The translations under genes and the position numbers were made by a program. From contig OZ024743.1 in the NCBI GenBank assembly GCA_964016885.1, forward strand, positions 141,360,001-141,424,000: a stretch of DNA of 64,000 nucleotides. The letters run 5' to 3'. Below are positions 1-64,000 of this stretch, one piece after another. Position 1 is the stretch's first letter. Every line of letters begins with the position of its first letter. A model generated the notes under the pieces. That model saw only the letters and a program-made list of their open reading frames with translations, did not search any database and was not told the DNA's origin. The stretch is from Eledone cirrhosa. Lineage: Eukaryota.

Positions 1-649
1 GTGCTTGGTGCTGGGTGTTTGGTGCTTGGTGCTTGGTGTTTGGTGCTTGGTGCTTGTTGCTTGGTGTTTGGTCCTTGGTGCTTGGTGCTTGGGTTTTGGT
101 GTTTGGTGCTTGCTGTTTGGTGCTTGCTCTTTGGTGCTTGGTGCTTGGTGATTCGTGTTTGGTGATTGGTGCTTGGGATTTGGTGTTTGGTGCTTGGTGT
201 TTGGTGCTTGGTGCTTGCTGTTTGGTGTTTGGTGTTTGGTTTTGGTGCTTGGTGTTTGATGTTTGGTGTTTGGTGCTTGGTGCTTGGTGTTTGGTGCTTG
301 GTGCCTGGTGCTTGTTGTTTGGTGTTTGGTGCTTAGTGCTTGGTGTTTGGTGTTTGGTGCTTGGTGGCTGGTGCTTGGTGCTTGGTGTTTCGTGCTTGGG
401 GCTTGGTGCTTGGTGTTTGGTGTTTGGTGCTTGGTGTTTGGTGTTTGGTACTTGGTGCTTGGTGCTTGGTGCTTGGTGTTTGGTGCTTGGTGTTTGATGC
501 TGCATGCTTGATGTTTGGTGATGTTTGGTGTTTGGTGCTTGGTACTTGGTGCTTGGTGTTTGGTGTTTGGTGCTTGGTGCTTGGTGTTTGGTGCTTGGTG
601 TTTGGTGTTTGGTGTTTGATGCTTGGTGTTTGCTGCTTGGTGCTTGGTG

Positions 650-3600
650 CTTGGTGTTTTGTGTTTGGTGCTTGGTACTTGGTGATTAGTGTTTGGTGCT
701 TGGTGCTTGCGGTTTGGTGTTTGGTGCTTGGGGTTTGGTGTTTGGTGCTTGGTGCTTGCTGCTTGGTGCTTGGTGTTTGGTGCTTGGTGCTTGGTGTTTG
801 GTGTTTGGTGCTTGGGGTTTGGTGTTTGGTGCTTGGTGCTTGGAGTTTGGTGCTTGGTGCTTGGTGTTTGGAGTTTGGTGCTTGGTGCTTGGTGCCTGGT
901 GCTTGGTGTTTGGTGTTTGGTGCTTAGTGGTTGGTGTTTGGTGTTTGGTGCTTGGTGCTTGGTGGCTGGTGTTTGGTGCTTGGTGTTTGGAGTTTGGTGT
1001 TTGGTGCTTGGTGCCTGGTGTTTCGTGCTTGGTGCTTGGTGCTTGGTGTCTGGTGTTTGGTGCTTGGTGTTTGGTGTTTGGTACTTGGTGCTTGGTGCTT
1101 GGTGCTTGGTGTTTGGTGCATGGTGTTTGATGCTGCGTGCTTGGTGTTTGGTGTTTGGTGCTTGGTGCTTGGTGTTTGGTATTTGGAGCTTGGTGCCTGG
1201 TGCTTGTTGTTTGGTGTTTTGTGCTTGGTGCTTGGTGTTTGGTGTTTGGCGTTTGGTGCTTGGTGCTTGGTATCTGGTTTTTGGTGCTTGATGTTTGGTG
1301 TTTGGTGCTTGGTGCTTGGTGCTTGGTGTTTGGTGTTTGGTGCTTGGTGCTTGGTGTTTGGTGCTTGGTGTTTGGTGTTTCGTGTTTGATGCTTGGTGTT
1401 TGATGCTTGGTGCTTGGTACTTGGTGTTTTGTGTTTGGTGCTTGGTGCTTGGTGCCTGCTGCTTGGTGCTTGGTGCTTGTTGTTTGGTGCTTGGTGCTTG
1501 GTGATTAGTGTTTGGTGCTTGGTGCTTGGTGCTTGGTGTTTGGTGCTTGGTGCTTGGTGTTTGGTGCTTGGTGCTTGGTGTTTGGTGTTTGGCGTTTGCT
1601 GTTTGCTGTTTGGTGTTTGGTGTTTGCTGTTTGGTGTTTGCTGTTTGGTGTTTGGTGTTTGGTGCTTGCTGTTTGGTGCTTGGTGCTTGGTGTTTGGTGT
1701 TTGGTGTTTGGTGCTTGGTGCTTGGTGTTTGGTGCTTGGTGCTTGGTGCTGGGTGTTTGGTGCTTGGTGCTTGGTGTTTGGTGCTTGGTGCTTGGTGCCT
1801 GGTGTTTGGTACTTGGTGCTTGGTGCTTGGTGCTTGGTGCTTGCTGTTTGGTGTTTGGTGTTTGGTTCTTGGTGCTTGGTGTTTGGTGTTTGGTGTTTGG
1901 TGCTTGGTGCTTGGTGCTTGGTGTTTGGTGCTTGGTGCTTGGTGATTAGTGTTTGGTGATTGGTGCTTGGGGTTTGGTGTTTGGTGCTTGGTGTTTGGTG
2001 CTTGGTGCTTGCTGTTTGGTGTTTGGTGTTTGGTTCTTGGTGCTTGGTGTTTGGTGTTTGGTGTTTGGTGCTTGGTGCTTGGTGCTTGGTGTTTGGTGCT
2101 TGGTGCTTGGTGCTTGGTGTTTGGTGCTGCGTGCTTGGTGTTTGGTGTTTGGTGCTTGGTGCCTGGGGCTTGTTGTTTGGTGTTTGGTGCTTAGTGCTTG
2201 GTGTTTGGTGTTTGGTGCTTGGTGCTTGGTGGCTGGTGCTTGGTGCTTGGTGTTTGGAGTTTGGTGCTTGGTGCTTGGTGCCTGGTGTTTCGTGCTTGGT
2301 GCTTGGTGCTTGGTGTTTGGTGTTTGGTGTTTGGTGTTTGGTGTTTGGTACTTGGTGCTTGGTGCTTGGTGTTTGGTGCTTGGTGTTTGGTGATTGGTGC
2401 TTGGTGCTTGGTGCTTTGTGTTAGGTGTTTGGTCCTTGGTGCTTGTTGTTTGGTGTTTTGTGCTTGGTGCTTGGCGTTTGGTGTTTGGCGCTAGGGGCTT
2501 GGTGCTTGATGCTTGGTGTTTGGTGCTTGGTGCTTGCTGTTTGGTGTTTGGTGCTTGGTGCGTGGGACTTAGTGTTTGGTGTTTGGTGTTTGGTGTTTGG
2601 TGCTTGGTGTTTGGTGCTTGGTGCTTGGTGTTTGGTGTTTGGTGCTTAGTGCTTGGGGCTTGGTGTTTGGTGCTTGGTGTTTGGTGTTTGGTGCTTGGTG
2701 CTTGGTGTTTGGCGCTTGGTGCTTGGTGCTTGGTGTTTGGTGCTTGGTGCTTGGTGCTTGGTGCTTGGTGATTAGTGTTTGGTGCTTGGTGCTTGGTGCC
2801 TGGTGCTTGGTGCTTGGTGCTTGTTGTTTGGTGCTTGGTGTTTGGTGCTTGGTGTTTGGTGCTTGGTGCTTGGTGTTTGGTGTTTGGTGCTTGGTGCTTG
2901 GGGCTTGGTCTTTGGTGCTTAGTGTTTGGTGCTTGGTGTTTGGTGCTTGGTGCTTGGTGCTTGGTGTTTGGTGTTTGGTGTTTGGTGCTTGGTGTTTGGT
3001 GCTTGGTGCTTGGTGCTGGGTGGTTGGTGTTTGGTGTTTGGTGCTTGGTGCTTCGTGCTTATTGTTTGGTGCTTGGTGCTTGGTGCTTGGTGCTTGGTCT
3101 TTGGTGCTTGGTGTTTGGTGTTTGGTACTTGGTGCCTGGTGTTTGGCGCTTGGTGCTTGGTGCTTGGTGTTTGGTGCTTGGTGTTTGGTGCTTGGTGATT
3201 AGTGTTTGGTGCTTTGTGCTTGGTGCCTGGTGCTTGGTGCTTGGTGCTTGATGTTTGGTGCTTGGTGCTTGGTGATTATTGTTTGGTGCTTGGTGCTTTG
3301 GGTTTGGTGTTTGGTGCTTGGGGTTTGGTGTTTGGTGCTTGGTGCTTGGTGTTTGGTGCTCGGTGCTTGGTGTTTGGTGCTTGGTGCTTTGTGTTTGGTG
3401 CTTGGTGTTTGGTGCTTGGTGCTTGGTGCTTGGTTCTTGGTGTTAGGTGTTTGGTGCTTGGTGATTGGTGTTTGATGTTAGGTTCTTGGTGCTTGGTGTT
3501 TGGTGCTTGCTGCTTGGTGCTTGGTGTTTTGTGTTTGGAGTTTGGTGCTTGGTGTTTGGTGCTTCGGTCTTGGTGTTTGGTGTTTGGTGCTTGGTGCCTG

Positions 3601-6600
3601 GGGCTTGTTGTTTGGTGTTTGGTGCTTAGTGCTTGGTGTTTGGTGTTTGGTGCTTGGTGCTTGGTGGCTGGTGCTTGGTGCTTGGTGTTTGCAGTTTGTG
3701 CTTGGTGCTTGGTGCCTGGTGTTTCGTGCTTGGTGCTTGGTGCTTGGTGTTTGGTGTTTGGTGCTTGGTGTTTGGTGTTTGGTACTTGGTGCTTGGTGCT
3801 TGGTGTTTGGTGCTTGGTGTTTGGTGCTTGGTGCTTGGTGCTTGGTGCTTGGTGTCAGGTGTTTGGTGCTTGGTGCTTGGTGTTTGATGTTTGGTCCTTG
3901 GTGCTTGTTGTTTGGTGTTTGGTGCTTCGTGCTTGGTGTTTGGTGTTTGGTGCTTGCTGCTTGCTGCTTGGTGTTTGGTGCTTGGTGATTGGTGCTTGGT
4001 GTTTTGTTCTTGGTGCTGGTGTTTGGTGTTTGCTGCTAGGGGCTTGGTGCTTGATGCTTGGTGTTTGGTGCTTGGTGCTTGGTGTTTGGTGTTTGGTGTT
4101 TGGTGCTTGGTGTTTGGTGCTTGGTGTTTGGTGCTTGGTGCTTGGTGTTTGGTGTTTGGTGCTTGGTGCTTGGGGCTTGGTCTTTGGTGCTTAGTGTTTG
4201 GTGCTTGGTGTTTGGTGCTTGGTGCTTGGTGCTTGGTGTTTGGTGTTTGGTGTTTGGTGCTTGGTGTTTGGTGCTTGTTGCTTGGTGCTGGGTGGTTGGT
4301 GTTTCGTGTTTGGTGCTTGGTGCTTGGTGCTTATTGTTTGGTGCTTGGTGCTTGGTGCTTGGTCTTTGGTGCTTGGTGTTTGGTGTTTGGTGCTTGGTGC
4401 CTTGTGTTTGGCGCTTGGTGCTTGGTGCTTGGTGTTTGCTGCTTGGTGTTTGGTGCTTGGTGATTAGTGTTTGGTGCTTGGTGCTTGGTGCCTGGTGCTT
4501 GGTGCTTGGTGCTTGATGTTTGGTGCTTGGTGATTAGTGTTTGGTGCTTGGTGCTTTGGGTTTGGTGTTTGGTGCTTGGGGTTTGGTGTTTGGTGCTTGG
4601 TGCTTGGTGTTTGGTGCTTGGTGCTTGGTGTTTGGTGCTTGGTGCTTTGTGTTTGGTGCTTGGTGTTTGGTGCTTGGTGCTTGGTGCTTCGGTCTTGGTG
4701 TTTGGTGTTTGGTGCTTGGTGCTTGGTGTTTGGTGTTTGGTGATTGGTGCTTGGTGTTTGGTGCTTGGTGCTTGGTGCTTGGTGCTTGGTGTTAGGCGTT
4801 TGGTGCTTGGTGCTTGGTGTTTGATGTTTGGTCCACTGTGCTTGGTGTTTGGTATTTTGTACTTGGTGCTTTGTGTTTGGTGTTTGGTGCTTGGTGCTTG
4901 GTGTTTGGTGTTTGGTGCTTGCTGCTTGCTGCTTGGTGTTTGGTGCTAGGGGCTTGGTGCTTGGTGTTTCGTGTTTGGTGCTTGGTGCTTGGTGTTTGGT
5001 GTTTGGTGCTTGGTGCGTGGGACTTGGTCTTTGGTGCTTGGTGTTTGGTGCTTGGTGTTTGGTGCTTGGTGCCGGGTGCTTGGTGTTTGGTGTTTGGTGC
5101 TTGGTGTTTGGTGCTTGTTGTTTGGTGCTTGGTGTTCGGTGCTTGGTGCTTGGTGCTTGGTGCTTGGTGTTTGGTGTTTGGTGCTTGGTGATTGGTGTTT
5201 GATGTTTGGTCCTTGGTGCTTGGTGTTTGGTGTTGTGTGTTTGGTGATTGGTGCTTGGTGTTTGGTGCTTGGTTCTTGGTGCTTGGTGTTTGGCGTTTGC
5301 TGTTTGCTGTTTGGTGGTTGGTGTTTGCTGTTTGGTGTTTGCTGTTTGGTGTTTGGTGCTTGGTGCTTGCGGTTTGGTGTTTGGTGCTTGGGGTTTGGTG
5401 TTTGGTGCTTGGTGCTTGCTGCTTGGTGCTTGGTGTTTGGTGCTTGGTGCTTGGTGTTTGGTGTTTGGTGCTTGGGGTTTGGTGTTTGGTGCTTGGTGCA
5501 TGGACTTTGGTGCTTGGTGCTTGGTGTTTGGAGTTTGGTGCTTGGTGCTTGGTGCCTGGTGCTTGTTGTTTGGTGTTTGGTGCTTAGTGGTTGGTGTTTG
5601 GTGTTTGGTGCTTGGTGCTTGGTGGCTGGTGTTTGGTGCTTGGTGTTTGGAGTTTGGTGTTTGGTGCTTGGTGCCTGGTGTTTCGTGTTTGGTGCCTGGT
5701 GCTTGTTGTTTGGTGTTTTGTGCTTGGTGCTTGGTGTTTGGTGTTTGGCGTTTGGTGCTTGGTGCTTGGTATCTGGTTTTTGGTGCTTGATGTTTGGTGT
5801 TTGGTGCTTGGTGCTTGGTGCTTGGTGTTTGGTGTTTGGTGCTTGGTGCTTGGTGTTTGGTGCTTGGTGTTTGGTGTTTCGTGTTTGATGCTTGGTGTTT
5901 GCTGCTTGGTGCTTGGTGCTTGGTGTTTTGTGTTTGGTGCTTGGTGCTTGGTGCCTGCTGCTTGGTGCTTGGTGCTTGTTGTTTGGTGCTTGGTGCTTGG
6001 TGATTAGTGTTTGGTGCTTGGTGCTTGGTGCTTGGTGTTTGGTGCTTGGTGCTTGGTGTTTGGTGCTTGGTGCTTGGTGTTTGGTGTTTGGCGTTTGCTG
6101 TTTGCTGTTTGGTGTTTGGTGTTTGCTGTTTGGTGTTTGCTGTTTGGTGTCTGGTGTTTGGTGCTTGCTGTTTGGTGCTTGGTGCTTGGTGTTTGGTGTT
6201 TGGTGTTTGGTGCTTGGTGCTTGGTGTTTGGTGCTTGGTGCTTGGTGCTGGGTGTTTGGTGCTTGGTGCTTGGTGTTTGGTGCTTGGTGCTTGGTGCCTG
6301 GTGTTTGGTCCTTGGTGCTTGGTGCTTGGTGCTTGGTGCTTGCTGTTTGGTGTTTGGTTCTTGGTGCTTGGTGTTTGGTGTTTGGTGTTTGGTGCTTGGT
6401 GCTTGGTGCTTGGTGTTTGGTGCTTGGTGCTTGGTGATTAGTGTTTGGTGATTGGTGCTTGGGGTTTGGTGTTTGGTGCTTGGTGTTTGGTGCTTGGTGC
6501 TTGCTGTTTGGTGTTTGGTGTTTGGTTCTTGGTGCTTGGTGTTTGGTGTTTGGTGTTTGGTGCTTGGTGCTTGGTGCTTGGTGTTTGGTGCTTGGTGCTT

Positions 6601-9600
6601 GGTGCTTGGTGTTTGGTGCTGCGTGCTTGGTGTTTGGTGTTTGGTGCTTGGTGCCTGGGGCTTGTTGTTTGGTGTTTGGTGCTTAGTGCTTGGTGTTTGG
6701 TGTTTGGTGCTTGGTGCTTGGTGGCTGGTGCTTGGTGCTTGGTGTTTGGAGTTTGGTGCTTGGTGCTTGGTGCCTGGTGTTTCGTGCTTGGTGCTTGGTG
6801 CTTGGTGTTTGGTGTTTGGTGTTTGGTGTTTGGTGTTTGGTACTTGGTGCTTGGTGCTTGGTGTTTGGTGCTTGGTGTTTGGTGATTGGTGCTTGGTGCT
6901 TGGTGCTTGGTGCTTGGTGTTAGGTGTTTGGTCCTTGGTCCTTGGTGCTTGTTGTTTGGTGTTTTGTGCTTGGTGCTTGGCGTTTGGTGTTTGGCGCTAG
7001 GGGCTTGGTGCTTGATGCTTGGTGTTTGGTGCTTGGTGCTTGCTGTTTGGTGTTTGGTGCTTGGTGCGTGGGACTTAGTGTTTGGTGTTTGGTGTTTGGT
7101 GTTTGGTGCTTGGTGTTTGGTGCTTGGTGCTTGGTGTTTGGTGTTTGGTGCTTAGTGCTTGGGGCTTGGTGTTTGGTGCTTGGTGTTTGGTGTTTGGTGC
7201 TTGGTGCTTTGTGTTTGGCGCTTGGTGCTTGGTGCTTGGTGTTTGGTGCTTGGTGCTTGGTGCTTGGTGCTTGGTGATTAGTGTTTGGTGCTTGGTGCTT
7301 GGTGCCTGGTGCTTGGTGCTTGGTGCTTGTTGTTTGGTGCTTGGTGTTTGGTGCTTGGTGTTTGGTGCTTGGTGCTTGGTGTTTGGTGTTTGGTGCTTGG
7401 TGCTTGGGGCTTGGTCTTTGGTGCTTAGTGTTTGGTGCTTGGTGTTTGGTGCTTGGTGCTTGGTGCTTGGTGTTTGGTGTTTGGTGTTTGGTGCTTGGTG
7501 TTTGGTGCTTGGTGCTTGGTGCTGGGTGGTTGGTGTTTGGTGTTTGGTGCTTGGTGCTTCGTGCTTATTGTTTGGTGCTTGGTGCTTGGTGCTTGGTGCT
7601 TGGTCTTTGGTGCTTGGTGTTTGGTGTTTGGTACTTGGTGCCTGGTGTTTGGCGCTTGGTGCTTGGTGCTTGGTGTTTGGTGCTTGGTGTTTGGTGCTTG
7701 GTGATTAGTGTTTGGTGCTTGGTGCTTGGTGCCTGGTGCTTGGTGCTTGGTGCTTGATGTTTGGTGCTTGGTGCTTGGTGATTATTGTTTGGTGCTTGGT
7801 GCTTTGAGTTTGGTGTTTGGTGCTTGGGGTTTGGTGTTTGGTGCTTGGTGCTTGGTGTTTGGTGCTTGGTGCTTGGTGTTTGGTGCTTGGTGCTTTGTGT
7901 TTGGTGCTTGGTGTTTGGTGCTTGGTGCTTGGTGCTTGGTTCTTGGTGTTAGGTGTTTGGTGCTTGGTGATTGGTGTTTGATGTTAGGTTCTTGGTGCTT
8001 GGTGTTTGGTGCTTGCTGCTTGGTGCTTGGTGTTTTGTGTTTGGAGTTTGGTGCTTGGTGTTTGGTGCTTCGGTCTTGGTGTTTGGTGTTTGGTGCTTGG
8101 TGCCTGGGGCTTGTTGTTTGGTGTTTGGTGCTTAGTGCTTGGTGTTTGGTGTTTGGTGCTTGGTGCTTGGTGGCTGGTGCTTGGTGCTTGGTGTTTGCAG
8201 TTTGTGCTTGGTGCTTGGTGCCTGGTGTTTCGTGCTTGGTGCTTGGTGCTTGGTGTTTGGTGTTTGGTGCTTGGTGTTTGGTGTTTGGTACTTGGTGCTT
8301 GGTGCTTGGTGTTTGGTGCTTGGTGTTTGGTGCTTGGTGCTTGGTGCTTGGTGCTTGGTGTCAGGTGTTTGGTGCTTGGTGCTTGGTGTTTGATGTTTGG
8401 TCCTTGGTGCTTGTTGTTTGGTGTTTGGTGCTTCGTGCTTGGTGTTTGGTGTTTGGTGCTTGCTGCTTGCTGCTTGGTGTTTGGTGCTTGGTGATTGGTG
8501 CTTGGTGTTTTGTGCTTGGTGCTTGGTGTTTGGTGTTTGCTGCTAGGGGCTTGGTGCTTGATGCTTGGTGTTTGGTGCTTGGTGCTTGCTGTTTGGTGTT
8601 TGGTGCTTGGTGCGTGGGACTTAGTGTTTGGTGTTTGGTGCTTGGTGTTTGGTGCTTGGTGTTTGGTGCTTGGTGCTTGGTGTTTGGTGTTTGGTGCTTG
8701 GTGCTTGGGGCTTGGTCTTTGGTGCTTAGTGTTTGGTGCTTGGTGTTTGGTGCTTGGTGCTTGGTGCTTGGTGTTTGGTGTTTGGTGTTTGGTGCTTGGT
8801 GTTTGGCGCTTGTTGCTTGGTGCTGGGTGGTTGGTGTTTGGTGTTTGGTGCTTGGTGCTTGGTGCTTATTGTTTGGTGCTTGGTGCTTGGTGCTTGGTGC
8901 TTGGTCTTTGGTGCTTGGTGTTTGGTGTTTGGTGCTTGGTGCCTGGTGTTTGGCGCTTGGTGCTTGGTGCTTGGTGTTTGCTGCTTGGTGTTTGGTGCTT
9001 GGTGATTAGTGTTTGGTGCTTGGTGCTTGGTGCCTGGTGCTTGGTGCTTGGTGCTTGATGTTTGGTGCTTGGTGATTAGTGTTTGGTGCTTGGTGCTTTG
9101 GGTTTGGTGTTTGGTGCTTGGGGTTTGGTGTTTGGTGCTTGGTGCTTGGTGTTTGGTGCTTGGTGCTTGGTGTTTGGTGCTTGGTGCTTTGTGTTTGGTG
9201 CTTGGTGTTTGGTGCTTGGTGCTTGGTGCTTCGGTCTTGGTGTTTGGTGTTTGGTGCTTGGTGCTTGGTGTTTGGTGTTTGGTGCCTGGTGCTTGGTGTT
9301 CGGTGCTTGGTGTTTGGTGTTTGGTGATTGGTGCTTGGTGTTTGGTGCTTGGTGCTTGGTGCTTGGTGCTTGGTGTTAGGCGTTTGGTGCTTGGTGCTTG
9401 GTGTTTGATGTTTGGTCCATTGTGCTTGGTGTTTGGTATTTTGTGCTTGGTGCTTGGTGTTTGGTGTTTGGTGCTTGGTGCTTGGTGTTTGGTGTTTGGT
9501 GCTTGCTGCTTGCTGCTTGGTGTTTGGTGCTAGGGGCTTGGTGCTTGGTGTTTCTTGTTTGGTGCTTGGTGCTTGGTGTTTGGTGTTTGGTGCTTGGTGC

Positions 9601-51510: not shown

Positions 51511-54500
51511 CTGGTGTTTCGTGCTTGGTGCTTGGTGTTTGGTGTTTGGTGCTTGGTGTTTGGTGTTTGGTACTTGGTGCTTGGTGCTTGGTGCTTGGTG
51601 TTTGGTGCTTGGTGTTTGATGCTGCGTGCTTGGTGTTTGGTGTTTGGTGCTTGCTGCTTGGTGTTTGGTGTTTGGAGCTTGGTGCCTGCTGCTTGTTGTT
51701 TGGTGTTTGGTGCTTGGTGCTTGGTGCTTGGTGTTTGGTGTTTGGTGCTTGGTGCTTGGTGTTTGGTGCTTGGTGTTTGGTGTTTTGTGTTTGGTGCTTG
51801 GTGCTTGGTGCCTGGTGCTTGTTGCTTGGTGCTTGTTGATTGGTGCTTGGTGCTTGGTGATTAGTGTTTGGTGCTTGGTGCGTGCGGTTTGATGTTTGGT
51901 GCTTGGGGTTTGGTGTTTGGTGCTTGGTGCTTGGTGTTTGGTGCTTGGTGCTTGGTGCTTGGTGCTTGGTGCTTGGTGTTTGGTGCTTGGTGTTTGGTGC
52001 TTGGTGCTTGGTGCTTGGTGCTTGGTGTTAGGTGTTTGGTGCTTGGTGCTTGGTGTTTGATGTTTGGTCCTTGGTGCTTGGTGTTTGGTGTTTGTTGCTT
52101 GGTGCTTGGTGTTTGGTGTTTGGTGCTTGCTGCTTGCTGCTTGGTGTTTGGTGCTTGGTGATTGGTGCTTGGTGTTTTGTGCTTGCTGTTTGGTGTTTGG
52201 TGCTTGGTGCGTGGGACTTAGTGTTTGGTATTTGGTGCTTGGTGTTTGGTGCTTGGTGTTTGGTGCTTGGTGTTTGGGGCTTGGTGTTCGGTGCTTGGTG
52301 CTTGGTGCTTGGGGCTTGGTGTTTGGTGTTTGGTGCTTGGTGCTTGGTGTTTGATGTTGGGTCCTTGGTGCTTGGTGTTTGGTGTTTGGTGCTTGGTGTT
52401 TGGTGTTTGGTGCTTGGTGCTTGGTGTTTGGTGTTTGGTGCTTGGTGCATGGGGCTTGGTGTTTGGTGCTTGGTGCTTGGTGTTTGGTGCTTCTGCTTGG
52501 GGCTTGGTAGTTGGTGCTTGGTGCCTGGTGTTTGGTGTTTGGTGTTTGGTGCTTGGTGTATGGTGCTTGGTGCTTGGTGCTGGGTGGTTGGTGTTTGGTG
52601 CTTGGTGCTTGGTGTTTGGTGCTTGGTGCTTGGTGCTTGTTGTTTGGTGCTTGGTGCTTGGTGCTTGGTCTTTGGTGCATGGTGTTTGGTGTTTGGCGCT
52701 TGGTGCTTGGTGCTTCGTGATTGGTGCTTGGGGTTTGGTGGTTGGTGCTTGGTGCTTGGTGTTTGGTGTTTGGTGTTTGGTGTTTGGTGTTTGCTGTTTG
52801 GTGTCTGCTTTTTGGTGTTTGGTGTTTGCTGTATGGTGTTTGCTGTTTCGTATTTGGTTTTTGCTGTTTGGTGTTTGGTGTTTGCTGTTTGGTGTTTGGT
52901 GTTTGGTGTTTGGTGCTTGGTGCTTGGTGCTTGGTGTTTGGCGTTTGGTGCTTGGTGCTTGGTGTTTGGTGCTTGGTGCTTGGTGTTTGGTGTTTGGTGC
53001 TTGGTGCCTGGTGCTTGTTGTATGGTGTTTGGTGCTTGGTGCTTGGTGTTTGGTGTTTGCTGCTTGGTGTCTGGTGTTTGGTGCTTGGTGTTTGGTGTTT
53101 GGTGCTTGGTGCTTGGTTTTTGGTGTTTGGTGCTTGGTGCTTGGTGTTTGGTGTTTGGTGCTGGGTGCATGGAGTTTGGTGCTTGGTGCTTAGTGCTTGG
53201 TGTTTGGTGTTTGGTGCTTGGTATTTGGTGTTTGGTGTTTGATGCTTGGTGTGTGGTGCTTGGTGCTTGGTGTTTTGTGTTTGGTGCTTGGTGCTTGGTG
53301 ACTGGTGCTGGGTGCTTGGTGCCTGTTGTTTGGTGCTTGGTGCTTGGTGATTAGTGTTTGGTGCTTGGTGCTTGGTGTTTGGTGCTTGGTGTTTGGTGCT
53401 TGGTGCCTGGTGCTTGGTGTTTGGTGTTTGATGCTTGGTGTTTGGTGTTTGGTGTTTGGTACTTGGTGTTCGGTGCTTGGTGCTTGGTGCTTGGTGCTTG
53501 GTGTTTGGTGTTTGGTGCTTGGTGCTTGGTGTTTGATGTTTGGTCCTTGGTGCTTGGTGTTTGGTGTTGTGTGCTTGGCGCTTGGTGGTTGGTGTTTGGT
53601 GCTTGGTGCTTGGTGCTTGGTGTTTGGCGTTTCCTGTTTGCTGTTTGGTGTTAGGTGTTTGCTGTTTGGTGTTTGCTGTTTGGTGTTTGGTGTTTGGTGC
53701 TTGCTGTTTGGTGCTTGGTGCTTGGTGTATGGTGTTTGATGCTTGGTGTTTGGTGCTTGGTGCTTGGTGCTGGGTGTTTGGTGCTTGGTGCTTGGTGCTT
53801 GGTGATTGGTGCTTGGTGTTTGGTCCTTGGTGCTTGGTGCATGGTCTTTGGTGCTTGGGTTTTGATGTTTGGTGCTTGGTGCTTGGTGTTTGGCGCTTGG
53901 TGCTTGGTGCTTGGTGCTTGGTGTTTGGTGCTTGCTGCTTGGTGCTTGGTGTTTGGTGCTTGGTGCTTGGTGAGTAGTGTTTGGTGATTGGTGCTTGGGG
54001 TTTTGTGTTTGGGGCTTGGTGTTTGGTGCTTAGTGCTTGCTGTTTGGTGTTTGGTGTTTGGTTCTTGGTGCTTGGTGTTTGGTGTTTGGTGTTTGGTGCT
54101 TGGTGCTTGGTGCTTGGTGTTTGGTGCTTGGTGCTTGGTGCTTGGTGTTTGGTGCTGCGTGCTTGGTGTTTGGTGTTTGGTGCTTGGTGCCTGGTGCTTG
54201 TTGTTTGGTACTTGGTGCTTGGTGCTTGGTGCTTGGTGTTTGGTGCTTGGTGTTTGATGCTGCCTGCTTGGTGTTTGGTGTTTGGTGCTTGGTGCTTGGT
54301 GGCTGGTGTTTGGTGCTTGGTGTTTGGAGTTTGGTGCTTGGTGCTTGGTGCCTGGTGTTTCGTGCTTGGTGCTTGGTGCTTGGTGTTTGGTGTTTGGTGC
54401 TTGGTGTTTGGTGTTTGGTACTTGGTGCTTGGTGCTTGGTGCTTGGTGTTTGGTGCTTGGTGTTTGATGCTGCCTGCTTGGTGTTTGGTGTTTGGCGCTT

Positions 54501-57500
54501 GGTGCTTGGTGTTTGGTGTTTGGTGCTTGGTGCTTGGTGCTTGGTATCTGGTGTTTGGTGCTTGATGTTTGGTGTTTGGTGCTTGGTGTTTTGTGTTTGG
54601 TGATTGGTGCTTGGTGCCTGGTGCTTGGTGCTTGGTGCTTGTTGTTTGGTGCTTGGTGCTTGGTGATTAGTGTTTGGTGCTTGGTGCTTGCGGTTTGGTG
54701 TTTGGTGCTTGGGGTTTGGTGCTTGGTGCTTGGTGCTTGGTGTTTGGTGCTTGGTGCTTGGTGTTTGGTGCTTGGTGCTTGGTGTTTGGTGTTTGGCGTT
54801 TGCTGTTTGCTGTTTGCTGTTTGGTGCTTGCTGTTTGGTGCTTGGTGCTTGGTGTTCGGTGTTTGGTGTTTTGTGCTTGGTGCTTGGTGTTTGGTGCTTG
54901 GTGCTTGGTGCTGTGTGTTTGGTGCTTGGTGCTTGGTGTTTGGTGCTTGGTGCTTGGTGCTTGGTGTTTGCTCCTTGGTGCTTGGTGCTTGGTCTTTGGT
55001 GCTTGGGTTTTGGTGTTTGGTGCATGGTGCTTGGTGTTTGGTGCTTGGTTCTTGGTGCTTGGTGCTTGGTGTTTGGTGATTGCTGCTTGGTGCTTGGTGT
55101 TTGGTGCTTGGTGCTTGGTGATTAGTGTTTGGTGATTGGTGCTTGGGGTTTGCTGTTTGGTGCTTGGTGTTTGGTGCTTGGTGCTTGCTGTTTGGTGTTT
55201 GGTGTTTGGTTCTTGGTGCTTGGTGTTTGGTGTTTGGTGTCTGGTGCTTGGTGCTTGGTGCTTGGTGTTTGGTGCTTGGTGCTTGGTGCTTGGTGTTTGG
55301 TGCTGCGTGCTTGGTGTTTGGTGCTTGGTGCTTGGTGATTAGTGTTTGGTGCTTTGTGTTTGGTGCTTGGTGTTTGGTGCTTGGTGCTTGGTGCTTAGTG
55401 CTTGGTGTTAGGTGTTTGGTGCTTGGTGATTGGTGTTTGATGTTAGGTTCTTGGTGCTTGGTGTTTGGTGTTTGGTGCTTGGTGCTTGGTGTTTGGTGTT
55501 TGGTGCTTGGTGCTTGGTGCTTGGTGCTTGGTGTTAGGTGTTTGGTGCTTGGTGCTTGGTGTTTGGTGCTTGGTGCTTTGTGTTTGGTGCTTGGTGTTTG
55601 GTGCTTGGTGCTTGGTGCTTGGTGCTTGGTGTTAGGTGTTTGGTGTTTGGTGATTGGTGTTTGATGTTAGGTTCTTGGTGCTTGGTGTTTGGTGTTTGGT
55701 GCTTGGTGCTTGGTGTTTGGTGTTTGGTGCTTGGTGCTTGGTGCTTGGTGCTTGGTGTTTGGTGTTTGGTGTTTGATGCTTGGTGTTTGCTGCTTGGTGC
55801 TTGGTGCTTGGTGTTTTGTGTTTGGTGTTTGATGCTGCGTGCTTGGTGTTTGGTGTTTGGTGCTTGGTGCTTGGTGTTTGGTGTTTGGAGCTTGGTGCCT
55901 GGTGCTTGTTGTTTGGTGTTTGGCGCTTGGTGCTTGGTGTTTGGTGTTTGGTGCTTGGTGCTTGGTGCTTGGTATCTGGTGTTAGGTGCTTGATGTTTGG
56001 TGTTTGGTGCTTAGTGTTTGGTGTTTGGTGCATGGTGCTTGGTGTTTGGTGCTTGGTGTTTGGTGTTTGGTGTTTGATGCTTGGTGTTTGCTGCTGGCTG
56101 CTTGCTGCTTGGTGTTTGGTGCTAGGGGCTTGGTGCTTGGTGCTTGGTGTTTGGTGCTTGGTGCTTGGTGCCTGGTGCTTGGTGCTTGGTGCTTGTTGTT
56201 TGGTGCTTGGTGCTTGGTGATTAGTGTTTGGTGCTTGGTGCTTGAGGTTTGGTGTTTGGTGCTTGGGGTTTGGTGTTTGGTGCTTGGTGCTTGGTGTTTG
56301 GTGCTTGGTGCTTGGTGCTTGGTGTTTGGTGCTTGGTGCTTGGTGTTTGGTGCTTGGTGCTTGGTGTTTGGTGTTTGGCGTTTGCTGTTTGCTGTTTTGT
56401 GCTTGGTGCTTGGGGTTTGGTGTTTGGTGCTTGGTGCTTGGTGTTTGGTGCTTGGTGCTTGGTGCTGGGTGTTTGGTGCTTGGTGCTTGGTGTTTGGTGC
56501 TTGGTGCTTGGTGCTTGGTGTTTGGTCCTTGGTGCTTGGTGCTTGGTCTTTGGTGCTTGGGGTTTGGTGTTTGGAGCTTGGTGCTTGGTGTTTGGTGCTT
56601 GGTTCTTGGTGCTTGGTGCTTGGTGTTTGGTGATTGCTGCTTGGTGCTTGGTGTTTGGTGCTTGGTGCTTGGTGACTAGTGTTTGGTTATTGGGGCTTGG
56701 GGTTTGCTGTTTGGTGCTTGGTGTTTGGTGCTTGGTGCTTGCTGTTTGGTGTTTGTTGTTTGGTTCTTGGTGCTTGGTGTTTGGTGTTTGGTGTTTGGTG
56801 CTTGGTGCTTGGTGTTTGGTGCTTGGTGCTTGGTGCTTGGTGTTTGGTGCGGCATGCTTGGTGTTTGGTGTTTGGTGCTTGGTGCCTGGTGCTTGTTGTT
56901 TGGTGCTTAGTGCTTGGTGTTTGGTGTTTGGTGCTTGGTGCTTGGTGGCTGGTGCTTGGTGCTTGGTGTTTGGAGTTTGGTGCTTGGTGCTTGGTGCCTG
57001 GTGTTTCGTGCTTGGTGCTTGGTGCTTGGTGTTTGGTGTTTGGTGCTTGGTGTTTGGTGTTTGGTACTTGGTGCTTGGTGCTTGGTGCTTGGTGTTTGGT
57101 GCTTGTTGTTTGATGCTGCGTGCTTGGTGTTTGGTGTTTGGTGCTTGGTGCTTGGTGTTTGGTGTTTGGAGCTTGGTGCCTGCTTTTTGTTGTTTGGTGT
57201 TTGGTGCTTGGTGCTTGGTGCTTGGTATCTGGTGTTTGGTGCTTGATGTCTGGTGTTTGGTGCTTGGTGCTTGGTGCTTGGTGTTTGGTGTTTGGTGCTT
57301 GGTGCTTGGTGTTTGGTGCTTGGTGTTTTGTGTTTGGTGCTTGGTGCTTGGTGCCTGGTGCTTGGTGCTTGGTGCTTGTTGTTTGGTGCTTGGTGCTTGG
57401 TGATTAGTGTTTGGTGCTTGGTGCTTGCGGTTTGATGTTTGGTGCTTGGGGTTTGGTGTTTGGTGCTTGGTGCTTGGTGTTTGGTGCTTGGTGCTTGGTG

Positions 57501-57789
57501 CTTGGTGCTTGGTGCTTGGTGTTTGGTGCTTGGTGCTTGGTGTTTGGTGCTTGGTGTTTGGTGCTTGGTGCTTGGTGCTTGGTGTTAGGTGTTTGGTGCT
57601 TGGTGCTTGGTGTTTGATGTTTGGTCCTTGGTGCTTGGTGTTTGGTGTTTGTTGCTTGGTGCTTGGTGTTTGGTGTTTGGTGCTTGCTGCTTGCTGCTTG
57701 GTGTTTGGTGCTTGGTGATTGGTGCTTGGTGTTTTGTGCTTGGTGCTTGGTGTTTGGTGTTTGGTGCTAGGGGCTTGGTGCTTGGTGCT

Positions 57790-60700
57790 TGGTGTTTGGT
57801 GCTTGGTGCTTGGTGTTTGGTGCTTGGTGCTTGGTGTCTGGTGCTTGGTGCTTGGTGTTTGGTGCTTGGTGTTTGGTGTTTGGTGCTTGGTGCTTGGTGC
57901 TTGGTGTTAGGTGTTTGGTGCTTGGTGCTTGGTGTTTGATGTTTGGTCCTTGGTGCATGGTGTTTGGTGTTTGTTGCTTGGTGCTTGGTGTTTGGTGTTT
58001 GGTGCTTGCTGCTTGCTGCTTGGTGTTTGGTGCTTGGTGATTGGTGCTTGGTGTTTTGTGCTTGGTGCTTGGTGTTTGGTGTTTGGTGCTAGGGGCTTGG
58101 TGCTTGGTGCTTGGTGTTTGGTGCTTGGTGCTTGCTGTTTGGTGCTTGGTGTTTGGTGCTTGGTGTTTGGGGCTTGGTGTTCGGTGCTTGGTGCTTGGTG
58201 CTTGGGGCTTGGTGTTTGGTGTTTGGTGCTTGGTGCTTGGTGTTTGATGTTGGGTCCTTGGTGCTTGGTGTTTGGTGTTTGGTGTTTGGTGTTTGGTGTT
58301 TGGTGCTTGGTGCTTGGTGTTTGGTGTTTGGTGCTTGGTGCTTGGGGCTTGGTGTTTGGTGCTTGGTGCTTGGTGTTTGGTGCTTCTGCTTGGGGCTTGG
58401 TAGTTGGTGCTTGGTGCTTGGTGCCTGGTGTTTGGTGTTTCGTGTTTGGTGCTTGGTGTATGGTGCTTGGTGCTTGGTGCTGGGTGGTTGGTGTTTGGTG
58501 CTTGGTGCTTGGTGTTTGGTGCTTGGTGCTTGGTGCTTGTTGTTTGGTGCTTGGTGCTTGGTGCTTCGTGATTGGTGCTTGGTGCTTGGTGTTTGGTGCT
58601 TGGTGCTTGGTGATTAGTGTTTGTTGCTTGGTGCTTGGTGTTTGATGTTTGGTCCTTGGTGCTTGGTGTTTGGTGTTTGTTGCTTGGTGCTTGGTGTTTG
58701 GTGTTTGGTGCTTGCTGCTTGCTGCTTGGTGTTTGGTGCTTGGTGATTGGTGCTTGGTGTTTTGTGCTTGGTGCTTGGTGTTTGGTGTTTGGTGCTAGGG
58801 GCTTGGTGCTTGGTGCTTGGTGTTTGGTGCTTGGTGCTTGCTGTTTGGTGCTTGGTGTTTGGTGCTTGGTGTTTGGGGCTTGGTGTTCGGTGCTTGGTGC
58901 TTGGTGCTTGGGGCTTGGTGTTTGGTGTTTGGTGCTTGGTGCTTGGTGTTTGATGTTGGGTCCTTGGTGCTTGGTGTTTGGTGTTTGGTGTTTGGTGTTT
59001 GGTGTTTGGTGCTTGGTGCTTGGTGTTTGGTGTTTGGTGCTTGGTGCTTGGGGCTTGGTGTTTGGTGCTTGGTGCTTGGTGTTTGGTGCTTCTGCTTGGG
59101 GCTTGGTAGTTGGTGCTTGGTGCTTGGTGCCTGGTGTTTGGTGTTTCGTGTTTGGTGCTTGGTGTATGGGGCTTGGTGCTTGGTGCTGGGTGGTTGGTGT
59201 TTGGTGCTTGGTGCTTGGTGTTTGGTGCTTGGTGCTTGGTGCTTGTTGTTTGGTGCTTGGTGCTTGGTGCTTCGTGATTGGTGCTTGGTGCTTGGTGTTT
59301 GGTGCTTGGTGCTTGGTGATTAGTGTTTGTTGCTTGGTGCTTGGGGTTTGGTGGTTGGTGCTTGGTGCTTGGTGTTTGGTGTTTGGTGTTTGGTGTTTGG
59401 TGTTTGCTGTATGGTGTTTGCTGTTTCGTATTTGGTTTTTGCTGTTTGGTGTTTGGTGTTTGCTGTTTGGTGTTTGGTGTTTGGTGTTTGGTGCTTGGTG
59501 CTTGGTGCTTGGTGTTTGGCGTTTGGTGCTTGGTGCTTGGTGTTTGGTGCTTCGTGCTTGGTGTTTGGTGTTTGGTGCTTGGTGGCTGGTGCTTGTTGTA
59601 TGGTGCTTGGTGCTTGGTGATTAGTGTTTGGTGCTTGGTGCTTGGTGTTTGGTGCTTGGTGTTTGGTGCTTGGTGCCTGGTGCTTGGTGTTTGGTGTTTG
59701 ATGCTTGGTGTTTGGTGTTTGGTGTTTGGTACTTGGTGTTCGGTGCTTGGTGCTTGGTGCTTGGTGCTTGGTGTTTGGTGTTTGGTGCTTGGTGCTTGGT
59801 GTTTGATGTTTGGTCCTTGGTGCTTGGTGTTTGGTGTTGTGTGCTTGGTGCTTGGTGGTTGGTGTTTGGTGCTTGGTGCTTGGTGCTTGGTGTTTGGTGC
59901 TTGGTGTTTGATGGTGCGTCCTTGGTGTTTGGTGTTTGGTGCTTGGTGCCTGGTGCTTGTTGTTTGGTGTTTGGCGCTTGGTGCTTGGTGTTTGGTGTTT
60001 GGTGCTTGGTGCTTGGTGCTTGGTATCTGGTGTTTGGTGCTTGATGTTTGGTGTTTGGTGCTTGGTGTTTGGTGTTTGGTGCTTGGTGCTTGGTGTTTGG
60101 TGCTTGGTGTTTGGTGTTTGGTGTTTGATGCTTGGTGTTTGCTGCTTGGTGCTTGGTGCTTGGTGTTTTGTGTTTGGTGTTTGATGCTGCGTGCTTGGTG
60201 TTTGGTGTTTGGTGCTTGGTGCTTGGTGTTTGGTGTTTGGAGCTTGGTGCCTGGTGCTTGTTGTTTGGTGTTTGGCGCTTGGTGCTTGGTGTTTGGTGTT
60301 TGGTGCTTGGTGCTTGGTGCTTGGTATCTGGTGTTAGGTGCTTGATGTTTGGTGTTTGGTGCTTGGTGTTTGGTGTTTGGTGCATGGTGCTTGGTGTTTG
60401 GTGCTTGGTGTTTGGTGTTTGGTGTTTGATGCTTGGTGTTTGCTGCTGGCTGCTTGCAGCTTGGTGTTTGGTGCTAGGGGCTTGGTGCTTGGTGCTTGGT
60501 GTTTGGTGCTTGGTGCTTGGTGCCTGGTGCTTGGTGCTTGGTGCTTGTTGTTTGGTGCTTGGTGCTTGGTGATTAGTGTTTGGTGCTTGGTGCTTGCGGT
60601 TTGGTGTTTGGTGCTTGGGGTTTGGTGTTTGGTGCTTGGTGCTTGGTGTTTGGTGCTTGGTGCTTGGTGCTTGGTGTTTGGTGCTTGGTGCTTGGTGTTT

Positions 60701-63700
60701 GGTGCTTGGTGCTTGGTGTTTGGTGTTTGATGCTTGGTGTTTGCTGCTGGCTGCTTGCTGCTTGGTGTTTGGTGCTAGGGGCTTGGTGCTTGGTGCTTGG
60801 TGTTTGGTGCTTGGTGCTTGGTGCCTGGTGCTTGGTGCTTGGTGCTTGTTGTTTGGTGCTTGGTGCTTGGTGATTAGTGTTTGGTGCTTGGTGCTTGCGG
60901 TTTGGTGTTTGGTGCTTGGGGTTTGGTGTTTGGTGCTTGGTGCTTGTTGTTTGGTGCTTGGTGCTTGGTGCTTGGTGTTTGGTGCTTGGTGCTTGGTGTT
61001 TGGTGCTTGGTGCTTGGTGTTTGGTGTTTGGCGTTTGCTGTTTGCTGTTTGGTGTTTGGTGTTTGCTGTTTGGTGCTTGGTGCTTGGTGTTTGGTGTTTG
61101 GTGTTTGGTACTTGGTGCTTGGTGTTTGGTGCTTGGTGCTTGGTGCTGGGTGTTTGGTGCTTGGTGCTTGGTGTTTGGTGCTTGGTGCTTGGTGCTTGGT
61201 GTTTGGTCCTTGGTGCTTGGTGCTTGGTCTTTGGTGCTTGTGTTTTGGTGTTTGGTGCTTGGTGCTTGGTGTTTGGTGCTTGGTTCTTGGTGCTTGGTGC
61301 TTGGTGTTTGTTGATTGCTGCTTGGTGCTTGGTGTTTGGTGCTTGGTGCTTGGTGACTAGTGTTTGGTGATTGGTGCTTGGGGTTTGCTGTTTGGTGCTT
61401 GGTGTTTGGTGCTTGGTGCTTGCTGTTTGGTGTTTGGTGTTTGGTTCTTGGTGCTTGGTGTTTGGTGTTTGGTGTTTGGTGCTTGGTGCTTGGTGTTTGG
61501 TGCTTGGTGCTTGGTGCTTGGTGTTTGGTGCTGCGTGCTTGGTGTTTGGTGTTTGGTGCTTGGTGCCTGGTGCTTGTTGTTTGGTGCTTAGTGCTTGGTG
61601 TTTGGTGTTTGGTGCTTGGTGCTTGGTGGCTGGTGCTTGGTGCTTGGTGTTTGGAGTTTGGTGCTTGGTGCTTGGTGCTTGGTGCCTGGTGTTTCGTGCT
61701 TGGTGCTTGGTGTTTGGTGTTTGGTGCTTGGTGTTTGGTGTTTGGTACTTGGTGCTTGGTGCTTGGTGCTTGGTGTTTGGTGCTTGGTGCTTGGTGCTTG
61801 GGGCTTGGTGTTTGGTGTTTGGTGCTTGGTGCTTGGTGTTTGATGTTGGGTCCTTGGTGCTTGGTGTTTGGTGTTTGGTGTTTGGTGTTTGGTGTTTGGT
61901 GCTTGGTGCTTGGTGTTTGGTGTTTGGTGCTTGGTGCTTGGGGCTTGGTGTTTGGTGCTTGGTGCTTGGTGTTTGGTGCTTGGTGCTTGGTGCTTGTTGT
62001 TTGGTGCTTGGTGCTTCGTGATTGGTGCTTGGTGCTTGGTGTTTGGTGCTTGGTGCTTGGTGATTAGTGTTTGTTGCTTGGTGCTTGGGGTTTGGTGGTT
62101 GGTGCTTGGTGCTTGGTGTTTGGTGTTTGGTGTTTGGTGTTTGGTGTTTGCTGTATGGTGTTTGCTGTTTCGTATTTGGTTTTTGCTGTTTGGTGTTTGG
62201 TGTTTGCTGTTTGGTGTTTGGTGTTTGGTGTTTGGTGCTTGGTGCTTGGTGCTTGGTGTTTGGCGTTTGGTGCTTGGTGCTTGGTGTTTGGTGCTTCGTG
62301 CTTGGTGTTTGGTGTTTGGTGCTTGGTGGCTGGTGCTTGTTGTATGGTGCTTGGTGCTTGGTGATTAGTGTTTGGTGCTTGGTGCTTGGTGTTTGGTGCT
62401 TGGTGTTTGGTGCTTGGTGTTTGGTGTTTGGTGTTTGGTACTTGGTGTTCGGTGTTTGGTGTTTGGTGCTTGGTGCTTGGTGTTTGATGTTTGGTCCTTG
62501 GTGCTTGGTGTTTGGTGTTGTGTGCTTGGTGCTTGGTGGTTGGTGTTTCGTGCTTGGTGCTTGGTGCTTGGTGTTTGGTGCTTGGTGTTTGATGCTGCGT
62601 CCTTGGTGTTTGGTGTTTGGTGCTTGGTGCTTGGTGTTTGGTGTTTGGAGCTTGGTGCCTGGTGCTTGTTGTTTGGTGTTTGGTGCTTGGTGCTTGGTGT
62701 TTGGTGTTTGGTGCTTGGTGCTTGGTGCTTGGTATCTGGTGTTAGGTGCTTGATGTTTGGTGTTTGGTGCTTGGTGTTTGGTGTTTGGTGCATGGTGCTT
62801 GGTGTTTGGTGCTTGGTGTTTGGTGTTTGGTGTTTGATGCTTGGTGTTTGCTGCTGGCTGCTTGCTGCTTGGTGTTTGGTGCTAGGGGCTTGGTGCTTGG
62901 TGCTTGGTGTTTGGTGCTTGGTGCTTGGTGCCTGGTGCTTGGTGCTTGGTGCTTGTTGTTTGGTGCTTGGTGCTTGGTGATTAGTGTTTGGTGCTTGGTG
63001 CTTGCGGTTTGGTGTTTGGTGCTTGGGGTTTGGTGTTTGGTGCTTGGTGCTTGGTGTTTGGTGCTTGGTGCTTGGTGCTTGGTGTTTGGTGCTTGGTGCT
63101 TGGTGTTTGGTGCTTGGTGCTTGGTGTTTGGTGTTTGATGCTTGGTGTTTGCTGCTGGCTGCTTGCTGCTTGGTGTTTGGTGCTAGGGGCTTGGTGCTTG
63201 GTGCTTGGTGTTTGGTGCTTGGTGCTTGGTGCCTGGTGCTTGGTGCTTGGTGCTTGTTGTTTGGTGCTTGGTGCTTGGTGATTAGTGTTTGGTGCTTGGT
63301 GCTTGCGGTTTGGTGTTTGGTGCTTGGGGTTTGGTGTTTGGTGCTTGGTGCTTGTTGTTTGGTGCTTGGTGCTTGGTGCTTGGTGTTTGGTGCTTGGTGC
63401 TTGGTGTTTGGTGCTTGGTGCTTGGTGTTTGGTGTTTGGCGTTTGCTGTTTGCTGTTTGGTGTTTGGTGTTTGCTGTTTGGTGGTTGGTGCTTGGTGTTT
63501 GGTGTTTGGTGTTTGGTACTTGGTGCTTGGTGTTTGGTGCTTGGTGCTTGGTGCTGGGTGTTTGGTGCTTGGTGCTTGGTGTTTGGTGCTTGGTGCTTGG
63601 TGCTTGGTGTTTGGTCCTTGGTGCTTGGTGCTTGGTCTTTGGTGCTTGTGTTTTGGTGTTTGGTGCTTGGTGCTTGGTGTTTGGTGCTTGGTTCTTGGTG

Positions 63701-64000
63701 CTTGGTGCTTGGTGTTTGTTGATTGCTGCTTGGTGCCTGGTGTTTCGTGCTTGGTGCTTGGTGTTTGGTGTTTGGTGCTTGGTGTTTGGTGTTTGGTACT
63801 TGGTGCTTGGTGCTTGGTGCTTGGTGTTTGGTGCTTGGTGTTTGATGCTGCGTGCTTGGTGTTTGGTGTTTGGTGCTTGCTGCTTGGTGTTTGGTGTTTG
63901 GAGCTTGGTGCCTGCTGCTTGTTGTTTGGTGTTTGGTGCTTGGTGCTTGGTGCTTGGTGTTTGGTGTTTGGTGCTTGGTGCTTGGTGTTTGGTGCTTGGT
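57790..64000 (+). repeat. Second copy of block ~45200-51775 (offset 12590, then 12562, then 12226)
   Basis: TTGGTGTCTG 45241/57831, 46027/58617, 46733/59323 and 47038/59628 = 12590; 48014/60576, 48798/61360 and 49505/62067 = 12562; 50520/62746 and 51059/63285 = 12226. It includes the 706-bp and 301-bp duplications and the rare variants GATGGTGCGTCC, CTTGCAGC and GACTAG. Confidence 0.92.

What the first reader, a model, noticed from the sequence alone, without database searches (positions are those of the whole stretch)
1..64000. A 7-bp satellite carrying a nested higher-order repeat hierarchy from ~0.1 to ~12.6 kb: candidate centromeric-type array
Seen: the array looks like low-complexity sequence but is built from duplications at 12 or more scales (119, 245, 301, 706, 1750, 2443-2499, 2618, 2744-2772, 3395, ~4500-4745, 5759-5886 and 12590 bp), with small ones nested inside large ones. 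Established: multi-kb HORs with recent near-identical expansions are typical of centromeric satellites such as primate alpha satellite (171 bp) and Arabidopsis CEN178, which have long monomers. Heptamer satellites are known (Drosophila virilis ACAAACT family) but are usually described as simple homogeneous runs. Inference: this may be an undescribed TTGGTGY satellite family whose evolving unit is the kb-scale HOR rather than the 7-mer, and it may be centromeric. I do not recognise the motif and cannot name the organism.
Basis: partly seen in the sequence, partly recalled or inferred. Interest (0 to 1): 0.75.

Follow-up and report, generated by a model that had tools for sequence, protein, structure and literature searches.

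The report
Octopus single-locus 7-bp megabase satellite
This window is part of a 14.6-million-base block of a seven-letter repeat on one giant chromosome of what is very likely the curled octopus; its nested spacings are real but likely record many one-off duplications rather than a fixed higher-order unit, and it is likely non-centromeric heterochromatin, because a different repeat shared by all four giant chromosomes lies 62 million bases away.

Summary
Observation confirmed: the window is pure TTGGTGY (9,129 of 9,145 units are 7 bp) and all 12 claimed offsets exist (344 duplicated segments, 0 after shuffling). They are not a regimented HOR: periods change every ~10 kb and no long duplication exceeds 2.6 copies in 250 kb. 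The genome's mitochondrial COX1 equals an Eledone cirrhosa record. The window lies in a 14.60-Mb block on C4 (128.82-143.42 Mb) holding about 96% of the family; the only other array seen is a 71-kb island inside a 25-bp satellite on C2. Nesting continues upward: the window has a 99.7% paralogue ~370-390 kb away, and one inversion junction recurs in 9 copies. Between window and paralogue there is about one whole-unit gain or loss per three substitutions. The centromere idea is disfavoured: a 25-27-bp satellite occurs mid-chromosome on all four giant chromosomes, on C4 62 Mb away; CENP-A is untested. It behaves like human HSat2/3 nested tandem repeats. No published description found. This scan already noted the same block and its amplified junction in other windows.

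The parts
1..64000 (+). Uninterrupted TTGGTGY heptamer satellite, one orientation; 64 kb of a 14.60-Mb block (G000:C4:128,822,858-143,422,346)
   Evidence: no Rfam match
693..15087 (+). Fragmented ~4.5-4.75 kb and ~5.88 kb duplications (2429-4078 to 6935-8585, offset 4506; 5815-9208 to 11694-15087, offset 5879, 3 differences in 3,394 bases)
15193..20442 (+). Complete 2,618-bp tandem duplication, 1 base differs in 2,632
24712..29317 (+). Duplication at offset 3,395 (1,211 bases aligned, 7 differences)
29955..32684 (+). Duplication at offset 1,750 (980 bases aligned, 6 differences)
31992..37402 (+). Pieces duplicated at offsets 2,443-2,499
36087..45366 (+). Pieces duplicated at offsets 5,759-5,780
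40642..41145 (+). Exact 245-bp tandem duplication; not tandem in the paralogue ~370 kb away
41909..42146 (+). Exact 119-bp tandem duplication; also tandem in the paralogue, so older than that large duplication
45206..61678 (+). ~12.6-kb duplication (45206-47359 to 57796-59949, offset 12,590; 47381-49116 to 59943-61678, offset 12,562) carrying the 706-bp and 301-bp duplications
45332..46750 (+). 706-bp tandem duplication (second copy of the pair at 57922-59340); one copy only in the paralogue
47185..51510 (+). Duplication at offset 2,744 carrying 301-bp tandem pairs (47850-48465, 50622-51209; also 60412-61027, 62820-63435)

Best explanation
The window is part of a 14.6-Mb, essentially single-locus block of a 7-bp satellite on one giant chromosome of an octopus (very likely Eledone cirrhosa), and its nested offsets likely record serial one-off duplications in likely non-centromeric heterochromatin. 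Shown: every unit matches its neighbours, gains and losses keep the 7-bp register, duplicated blocks range from 1 unit to about 13 kb in the window, about 370-390 kb next door and megabases across the block, and no period persists. Inferred mechanism: because any unit can pair with any other, mis-paired sister or homologue exchange, slippage and break-induced copying can start anywhere in register; each event copies a block together with the older duplications inside it, which yields the nested pattern without any selected higher-order unit. Rare point mutations are the marks that make the history visible. One old inversion junction was copied along with the largest duplications, and microhomology let 71 kb of the repeat enter a different satellite on C2. 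Inferred role: passive interstitial heterochromatin, like human HSat2/3 in build.
For: All offsets are two-copy; in 250 kb of one orientation 70 segments of at least 150 units were found, the 60 longest have at most 2.62 copies, and the commonest spacing changes in almost every 10-kb bin. Window against its paralogue at C4 141.73-141.81 Mb: 7,814 of 9,141 units aligned, 186 base differences in 54,690 bases (0.34%), 63 whole-unit gaps, 12 of them over 50 units, and only 2 units changed in length. Frame-breaking insertions are very rare genome-wide: 7 and 17 matches for two insertion probes against 416,462 perfect five-unit strings. 9 copies of one junction with the same flanks, 2 of 9 flipped; three junctions of the opposite kind are seamless and all different. 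Confinement: 27.5 +/- 1.2 matches per kb in 43 samples times 14.60 Mb gives about 401,000 of 416,462; rare probes fall in the block 7 of 7, 17 of 17, 9 of 9 and 100 of 100 listed out of 104. Edges are abrupt and the flanks sampled hold no satellite. A 25-27-bp satellite lies mid-chromosome on C1, C2, C3 and C4, on C4 at about 205.6-206.4 Mb.
Against: No chromatin, Hi-C or cytological data were seen, so neither heterochromatin nor absence of CENP-A is shown. The block is far larger than the 25-bp array on C4 (about 1 Mb) and showed no interruption over 120 bases in 752 kb read, both features scored as centromere-like in the atlas paper, which also reports genomes with different centromeric families on different chromosomes. 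The C2 island puts the repeat inside the rival candidate. The probes for the 25-bp family show where it is, not that it is centromeric or single-site. Gap counts come from one optimal alignment among internal paralogues and are approximate; gaps are whole units by construction of that alignment. No read-level check of the assembly was obtained.
Confidence: 0.74

Rival explanations
1. The block is the active centromere of C4, a chromosome-specific satellite centromere built from a 7-bp unit.
For: Largest array seen on C4, free of insertions in 752 kb read, rich in very recent duplications; interior position (0.34-0.38 of the chromosome); octopod C-bands are mostly centromeric (PMC6160780); families confined to different chromosomes occur in polytypic genomes.
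Against: About 96% of the family is on one chromosome. C4 carries, 62 Mb away, the 25-bp family found on all four giant chromosomes, beside an AT-rich repeat and a 196-227-bp repeat that are also beside the 25-bp arrays of C2 or C3. The same C-banding paper reports interstitial bands too.
Confidence: 0.1
2. The block is a silenced former centromere or a fusion scar of one of the ancestral chromosomes joined into giant C4, and expanded after losing that role.
For: The karyotype is bimodal: four sequences of 379-443 Mb, three of 94-135 Mb, the next ones 44-61 Mb; Eledone is reported to have extra karyotype changes (PMC12682272, passage). The 7-bp repeat touches the candidate centromeric 25-bp satellite on C2.
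Against: No telomeric hexamer tract, no 25-bp array and no decayed repeat layer at either edge in the stretches read; the array is young and pure, not eroded. Synteny of the flanks was not tested.
Confidence: 0.1
3. Much of the nesting is an assembly product (duplicated haplotypes or mis-joined reads in low-complexity DNA).
For: Some tandem duplications are perfect or nearly so (5,587 bp and 2,792 bp at 100% unit identity upstream of the window; 2,618 bp with 1 difference in it). No read-level check was obtained; the best sequencing runs (0.73-0.81 of sampled words) may be the source sample.
Against: Duplications span a continuum of divergence (88-100% unit identity); older ones are shared between distant paralogues while younger ones are private; no N gap in any array stretch read, including four strand switches read in context; the junction copies have diverged from each other.
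Confidence: 0.06

Closest known systems
Human classical satellites HSat2/HSat3 with nested tandem repeats (Altemose et al., bioRxiv 10.1101/2021.07.12.452052; passages seen)
   Same: Multi-megabase arrays (13-28 Mb) grown from a very short simple repeat, chromosome-specific, with multi-kb nested repeat units and strand switches; an unrelated satellite inserted into another array is also described there (HSat1A in alpha satellite).
   Different: Different sequence (TTGGTGY, not CATTC); unit register is kept almost perfectly; no fixed kb period in the 250 kb examined; the block is 62 Mb from the candidate centromeric cluster, whereas the passages treat HSat arrays as pericentromeric.
Heterogeneous (Arabidopsis-like) versus regimented (human alpha) HORs in the Darwin Tree of Life centromere atlas (bioRxiv 10.64898/2026.09.17.752431; abstract, sections 4 and 6 read)
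   Same: Block duplications with heterogeneous spacing, attributed to unequal recombination; described as prevalent across 263 families.
   Different: Those families were chosen as centromere candidates, favoured when shared across chromosomes, mean monomer 140 bp; this one is 7 bp and nearly single-locus. Main text has no mention of octopus, cephalopod or mollusc; its supplementary tables could not be seen.
Conserved inversion sites (macro-dyads) of Tribolium madens TmSat1/TmSat2 (PMC13081366; passages seen)
   Same: A single kind of inversion junction present in many similar copies, able to fold as a long hairpin (-68 kcal/mol for 120 nt here).
   Different: Thousands of sites a few kb to 75 kb apart on all chromosomes there; 9 copies 0.1-2.9 Mb apart in one block here, with unique opposite junctions.
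Drosophila virilis heptamer satellites (named in the finding; details recalled, two searches gave no usable paper)
   Same: 7-bp unit, very large arrays.
   Different: Different motif; here two variants (C and T at the last base) are interleaved with a 28-bp ordering.

Membership tests
Regimented centromeric HOR satellite (alpha-satellite type) | A fixed multi-monomer unit repeated in many tandem copies | tested here: not met
   At most 2.62 copies among the 60 longest of 70 segments in 250 kb; period changes about every 10 kb
Centromeric satellite | Shared by many chromosomes | tested here: not met
   About 96% in one block; probes 7/7, 17/17, 9/9, 100 of 104 listed in the block; one 71-kb island on C2. 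Small arrays elsewhere are not excluded.
Centromeric satellite | Long, contiguous, homogenised array | tested here: met
   14.60 Mb; no interruption over 120 bases in 752 kb read, about 5% of the block
Centromeric satellite | CENP-A occupancy and position at the primary constriction | not testable with these tools
   No chromatin, Hi-C or FISH data
HSat2/3-like simple satellite with nested tandem repeats (works like) | Megabase array derived from a very short repeat, with kb-scale nested duplications | tested here: met
HSat2/3-like simple satellite with nested tandem repeats (works like) | Chromosome-specific array with internal strand switches | tested here: met
Human HSat2/3 (membership) | Derived from (CATTC)n | tested here: not met
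   Consensus is TTGGTGY; HSat origin
Telomeric or interstitial telomeric repeat | Made of this genome's telomere unit or lying at a chromosome end | tested here: not met
   4 of 18 contig starts read carry CCCTAA tracts; array samples at both edges hold no TTAGGG or CCCTAA; block is interior
Tribolium-type macro-dyad satellite | Dense, conserved inversion sites of both kinds throughout the arrays | tested here: not met
   9 copies of one junction in 14.6 Mb; three opposite junctions all differ, one is single-copy
Coding or structured-RNA repeat | Known RNA family or maintained reading frame | tested here: not met
   0 Rfam matches; 89-243 stops in each of six frames

The most novel reading that the evidence does not exclude
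The 14.6-Mb heptamer block is the active, or recently silenced second, centromere of a fusion-built giant octopus chromosome: a 7-bp satellite that took over or lost kinetochore function on C4 while the 25-bp family serves the other giant chromosomes, the C2 island being a trace of exchange between clustered centromeres.
Probability: 0.15. Interest if true: 0.7.

Novelty: new member of a known kind. Interest (0 to 1): 0.3.

Why it matters
No description of centromeric DNA or of this repeat in an octopus turned up in the searches made, so the block and the rival 25-bp family give two ready oligo probes to locate centromeres on unusually large octopod chromosomes. The array is also a clean record of satellite turnover: with a 7-bp unit and marked variants, events can be counted directly (about one whole-unit gain or loss per three substitutions, sizes from 7 bp to over 8 kb between two copies 0.34% apart). 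The architecture itself is of a known kind, so the surprise for a specialist is modest unless the block proves centromeric.

Tried and rejected
Fixed HOR period: rejected. Fold-back origin of the forward-to-reverse junctions: rejected; the two arms share no 140-base word in any of 3 junctions and at most 1.7% of 98-base words. Strand switches as scaffold gaps: not so in the switches read; at least four further reverse-to-forward switches implied by sample orientation (129.95-130.2, 134.94-135.05, 137.37-137.49, 140.0-140.36 Mb) did not match the junction probe and were not read. A spacer-free head-to-head junction probe found nothing. Repeated 25-bp/7-bp junction: single copy. Telomere origin: rejected. 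Single-strand structure of the plain repeat: none (z -0.04 and -1.47). The tandem-pair test was uninformative for the 168-bp and first 706-bp cases. The COX1 search of cluster representatives gave no names. Look-alikes among earlier findings by sequence were bacterial heptamer repeats sharing 3-4 of 180 words: unrelated. Origin of the C2 island within the block could not be placed. Literature: heptamer words plus 'satellite' (30 of 405 listed, none about this repeat), cephalopod centromere or satellite, Eledone, virilis heptamers. Dfam and Repbase were not available.

Full report
Observation. The window has 30,603 T, 26,319 G, 6,107 C and 971 A, with constant composition. Alignment to the cyclic consensus TTGGTGY gave 9,145 units, 9,129 of 7 bp; 72% are one of two perfect forms. 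A diagonal search found 344 duplicated segments, against 0 in one shuffle of the units. All 12 claimed offsets were found, several nearly exact: 1 difference in 2,632 bases at offset 2,618, 3 in 3,394 at 5,879, 1 in 2,154 at 12,590. There is no Rfam match and every frame has many stops.

Not a fixed higher-order repeat. With neighbouring DNA, 250 kb of one orientation gave 70 duplicated segments of at least 150 units; none of the 60 longest exceeds 2.62 copies, and the commonest spacing changes in nearly every 10-kb bin (2,966; 3,884; 4,846; 5,587; 2,792; 5,879; 2,618; 12,226; 10,959; 2,065 bp and others). The offsets are therefore a record of separate duplications. This matches the heterogeneous class of the centromere atlas (section 6 read) and the nested tandem repeats of human HSat2/3 (passages).

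Organism and place. The window is G000:C4:141,360,001-141,424,000 in a 3.0-Gb genome. Contigs C1-C4 are 443, 416, 379 and 379 Mb, the next three 94-135 Mb, and most of C8-C18 44-61 Mb; 4 of 18 starts read carry CCCTAA tracts. The mitochondrial COX1 is identical to a record named Eledone cirrhosa. The block runs from 128,822,858 to 143,422,346 (14.60 Mb), with abrupt edges and no satellite in the flanks read. All interior samples were satellite; 752 kb read showed no interruption over 120 bases.

Nearly single-locus. The genome has 416,462 perfect five-unit strings. Mean density in 43 samples is 27.5 +/- 1.2 per kb, so the block accounts for about 401,000, roughly 96%. Rare probes fell in the block 7 of 7, 17 of 17 and 9 of 9 times, and all 100 listed of 104 in a fourth; these hits are clustered paralogues, not independent draws, and small arrays elsewhere could be missed. 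The one other array seen is C2:250,860,581-250,931,515 (71 kb), set inside a 25-bp satellite; its ends use words shared by the two repeats (CCA on the left, CCAAG on the right), which suggests microhomology-guided insertion (inference).

Nesting continues upward. The window and its surroundings have a paralogue about 365-405 kb downstream. A unit-level alignment placed 7,814 of 9,141 window units there, with 186 base differences in 54,690 bases (0.34%) and 63 gaps: 17 of one unit, 3 of two, 0 of three, 7 of four, 4 of five, 20 of 6-50 and 12 over 50 units; only 2 aligned units differ in length. The count is approximate, since the alignment can choose among internal copies. The 119-bp pair is tandem in both places, while the 245-, 301-, 322- and 706-bp pairs are tandem only in the window, so small duplications arise both before and after large ones. 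Clusters of one rare variant recur at 131.25, 132.8, 135.75, 138.6, 140.37 and 140.87 Mb. A reverse-to-forward junction with a 20-bp-armed palindrome occurs 9 times between 130.4 and 142.9 Mb with homologous flanks, 2 of 9 flipped. Three forward-to-reverse junctions are seamless, all different and not fold-backs. At least four more switches are implied by sample orientation and were not read. Earlier scan notes report the same junction ten or eleven times.

Mechanism. Shown: register-keeping gains and losses at all scales, no lasting period, one amplified junction. Inferred, from established models of satellite turnover (unequal exchange, slippage, break-induced copying; the atlas invokes unequal recombination): any unit can pair with any other, so blocks of arbitrary whole-unit length are copied with their older internal duplications. 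The excess of four-unit gaps fits mis-pairing in the 28-bp register, on small numbers. Flipped junction copies fit recombination between oppositely oriented blocks; unique opposite junctions need non-homologous joins.

Centromere. The 25-27-bp satellite was found mid-chromosome on all four giant chromosomes: C1 251.2-252.0 Mb, C2 246.5-251.1, C3 162.7-167.5 and C4 205.6-206.4, about 80% alike across them. An AT-rich repeat lies beside or in it on C2, C3 and C4, and a 196-227-bp repeat near it on C2 and C4. By the atlas's criteria (section 4 read) sharing across chromosomes favours that cluster; the heptamer block scores on length and purity only and is 62 Mb from it. Against my reading: the 25-bp array on C4 is only about 1 Mb, polytypic genomes exist, octopod C-bands are mostly centromeric though some are interstitial (PMC6160780, passages), and nothing here measures CENP-A.

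Literature. No description of this repeat was found (listings only, not all hits shown). Passages were seen of the vampire squid paper (PMC12682272) and of a coleoid 3D-genome preprint (10.1101/2025.08.29.672809; no occurrence of 'centromer' or 'satellite'). The atlas's supplementary tables, which might list this species, could not be seen; Dfam and Repbase were not searched.

Verdict. Real, correctly described, an apparently unnamed satellite of a known architectural kind; likely interstitial heterochromatin built by serial duplication (0.74). Interest 0.3; 0.7 if it proves to be an active or silenced second centromere (0.15).

Noticed in passing
G000 C1 251.2-252.0, C2 246.5-251.1, C3 162.7-167.5, C4 205.6-206.4 Mb (L040, L104-L114, L148, L149, L155-L158, L160, L194, L201, L202): A 25-27-bp satellite with two unit types at a mid-chromosome site on all four giant chromosomes; a better centromere candidate than the heptamer. 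One probe hit also on scaffold C1499.
   Followed up: partly
G000:C2:250,860,581-250,931,515 (L040, L108-L111): 71-kb island of the heptamer inside the 25-bp array, both ends at short words shared by the two repeats.
   Followed up: yes
L183 (C4 212.22 Mb) and L203 (C2 245.0 Mb): Related 196-bp and 227-bp tandem repeats (77% alike) near the 25-bp arrays on two chromosomes.
   Followed up: partly
L107 (C2 250.7), L193 (C4 205.45), L197 (C3 168.5 Mb): Related AT-rich repeat beside or inside the 25-bp arrays on three chromosomes (70-96% alike).
   Followed up: partly
L150, L151, L153, L182 (C4 206.5-211.5 Mb); L118, L122, L123 (C2 252-259 Mb): Many different satellites (37, 27, 55, 99, 70 and 16 bp) cluster next to the 25-bp arrays.
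   Followed up: no
L165:489-561 and 1962-2037 (C4 128.82 Mb): Two tRNA-Arg(TCG)-like genes within 2.4 kb of the left edge of the block, and a further tRNA-like fragment about 150 bases from the edge.
   Followed up: no
L022 (start of C2) and L151 (C4 207.2 Mb): Repeats built from ACC/AAC triplets (CCAACA), one base shorter than the heptamer CCAAACA; a possible microsatellite origin of the unit, untested.
   Followed up: no
G000:C4:141,270,960-141,282,150 and 141,351,215-141,356,810: Perfect two-copy tandem duplications of 5,587 and 2,792 bp upstream of the window; very recent events or assembly duplications.
   Followed up: partly
G000 C1-C18 lengths: Strongly bimodal karyotype: four sequences of 379-443 Mb hold over half of the genome.
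   Followed up: no
G000:C2 345.14, 115.16-115.18, 206.20, 163.79 Mb: Nuclear copies of mitochondrial COX1, one nearly full length.
   Followed up: no
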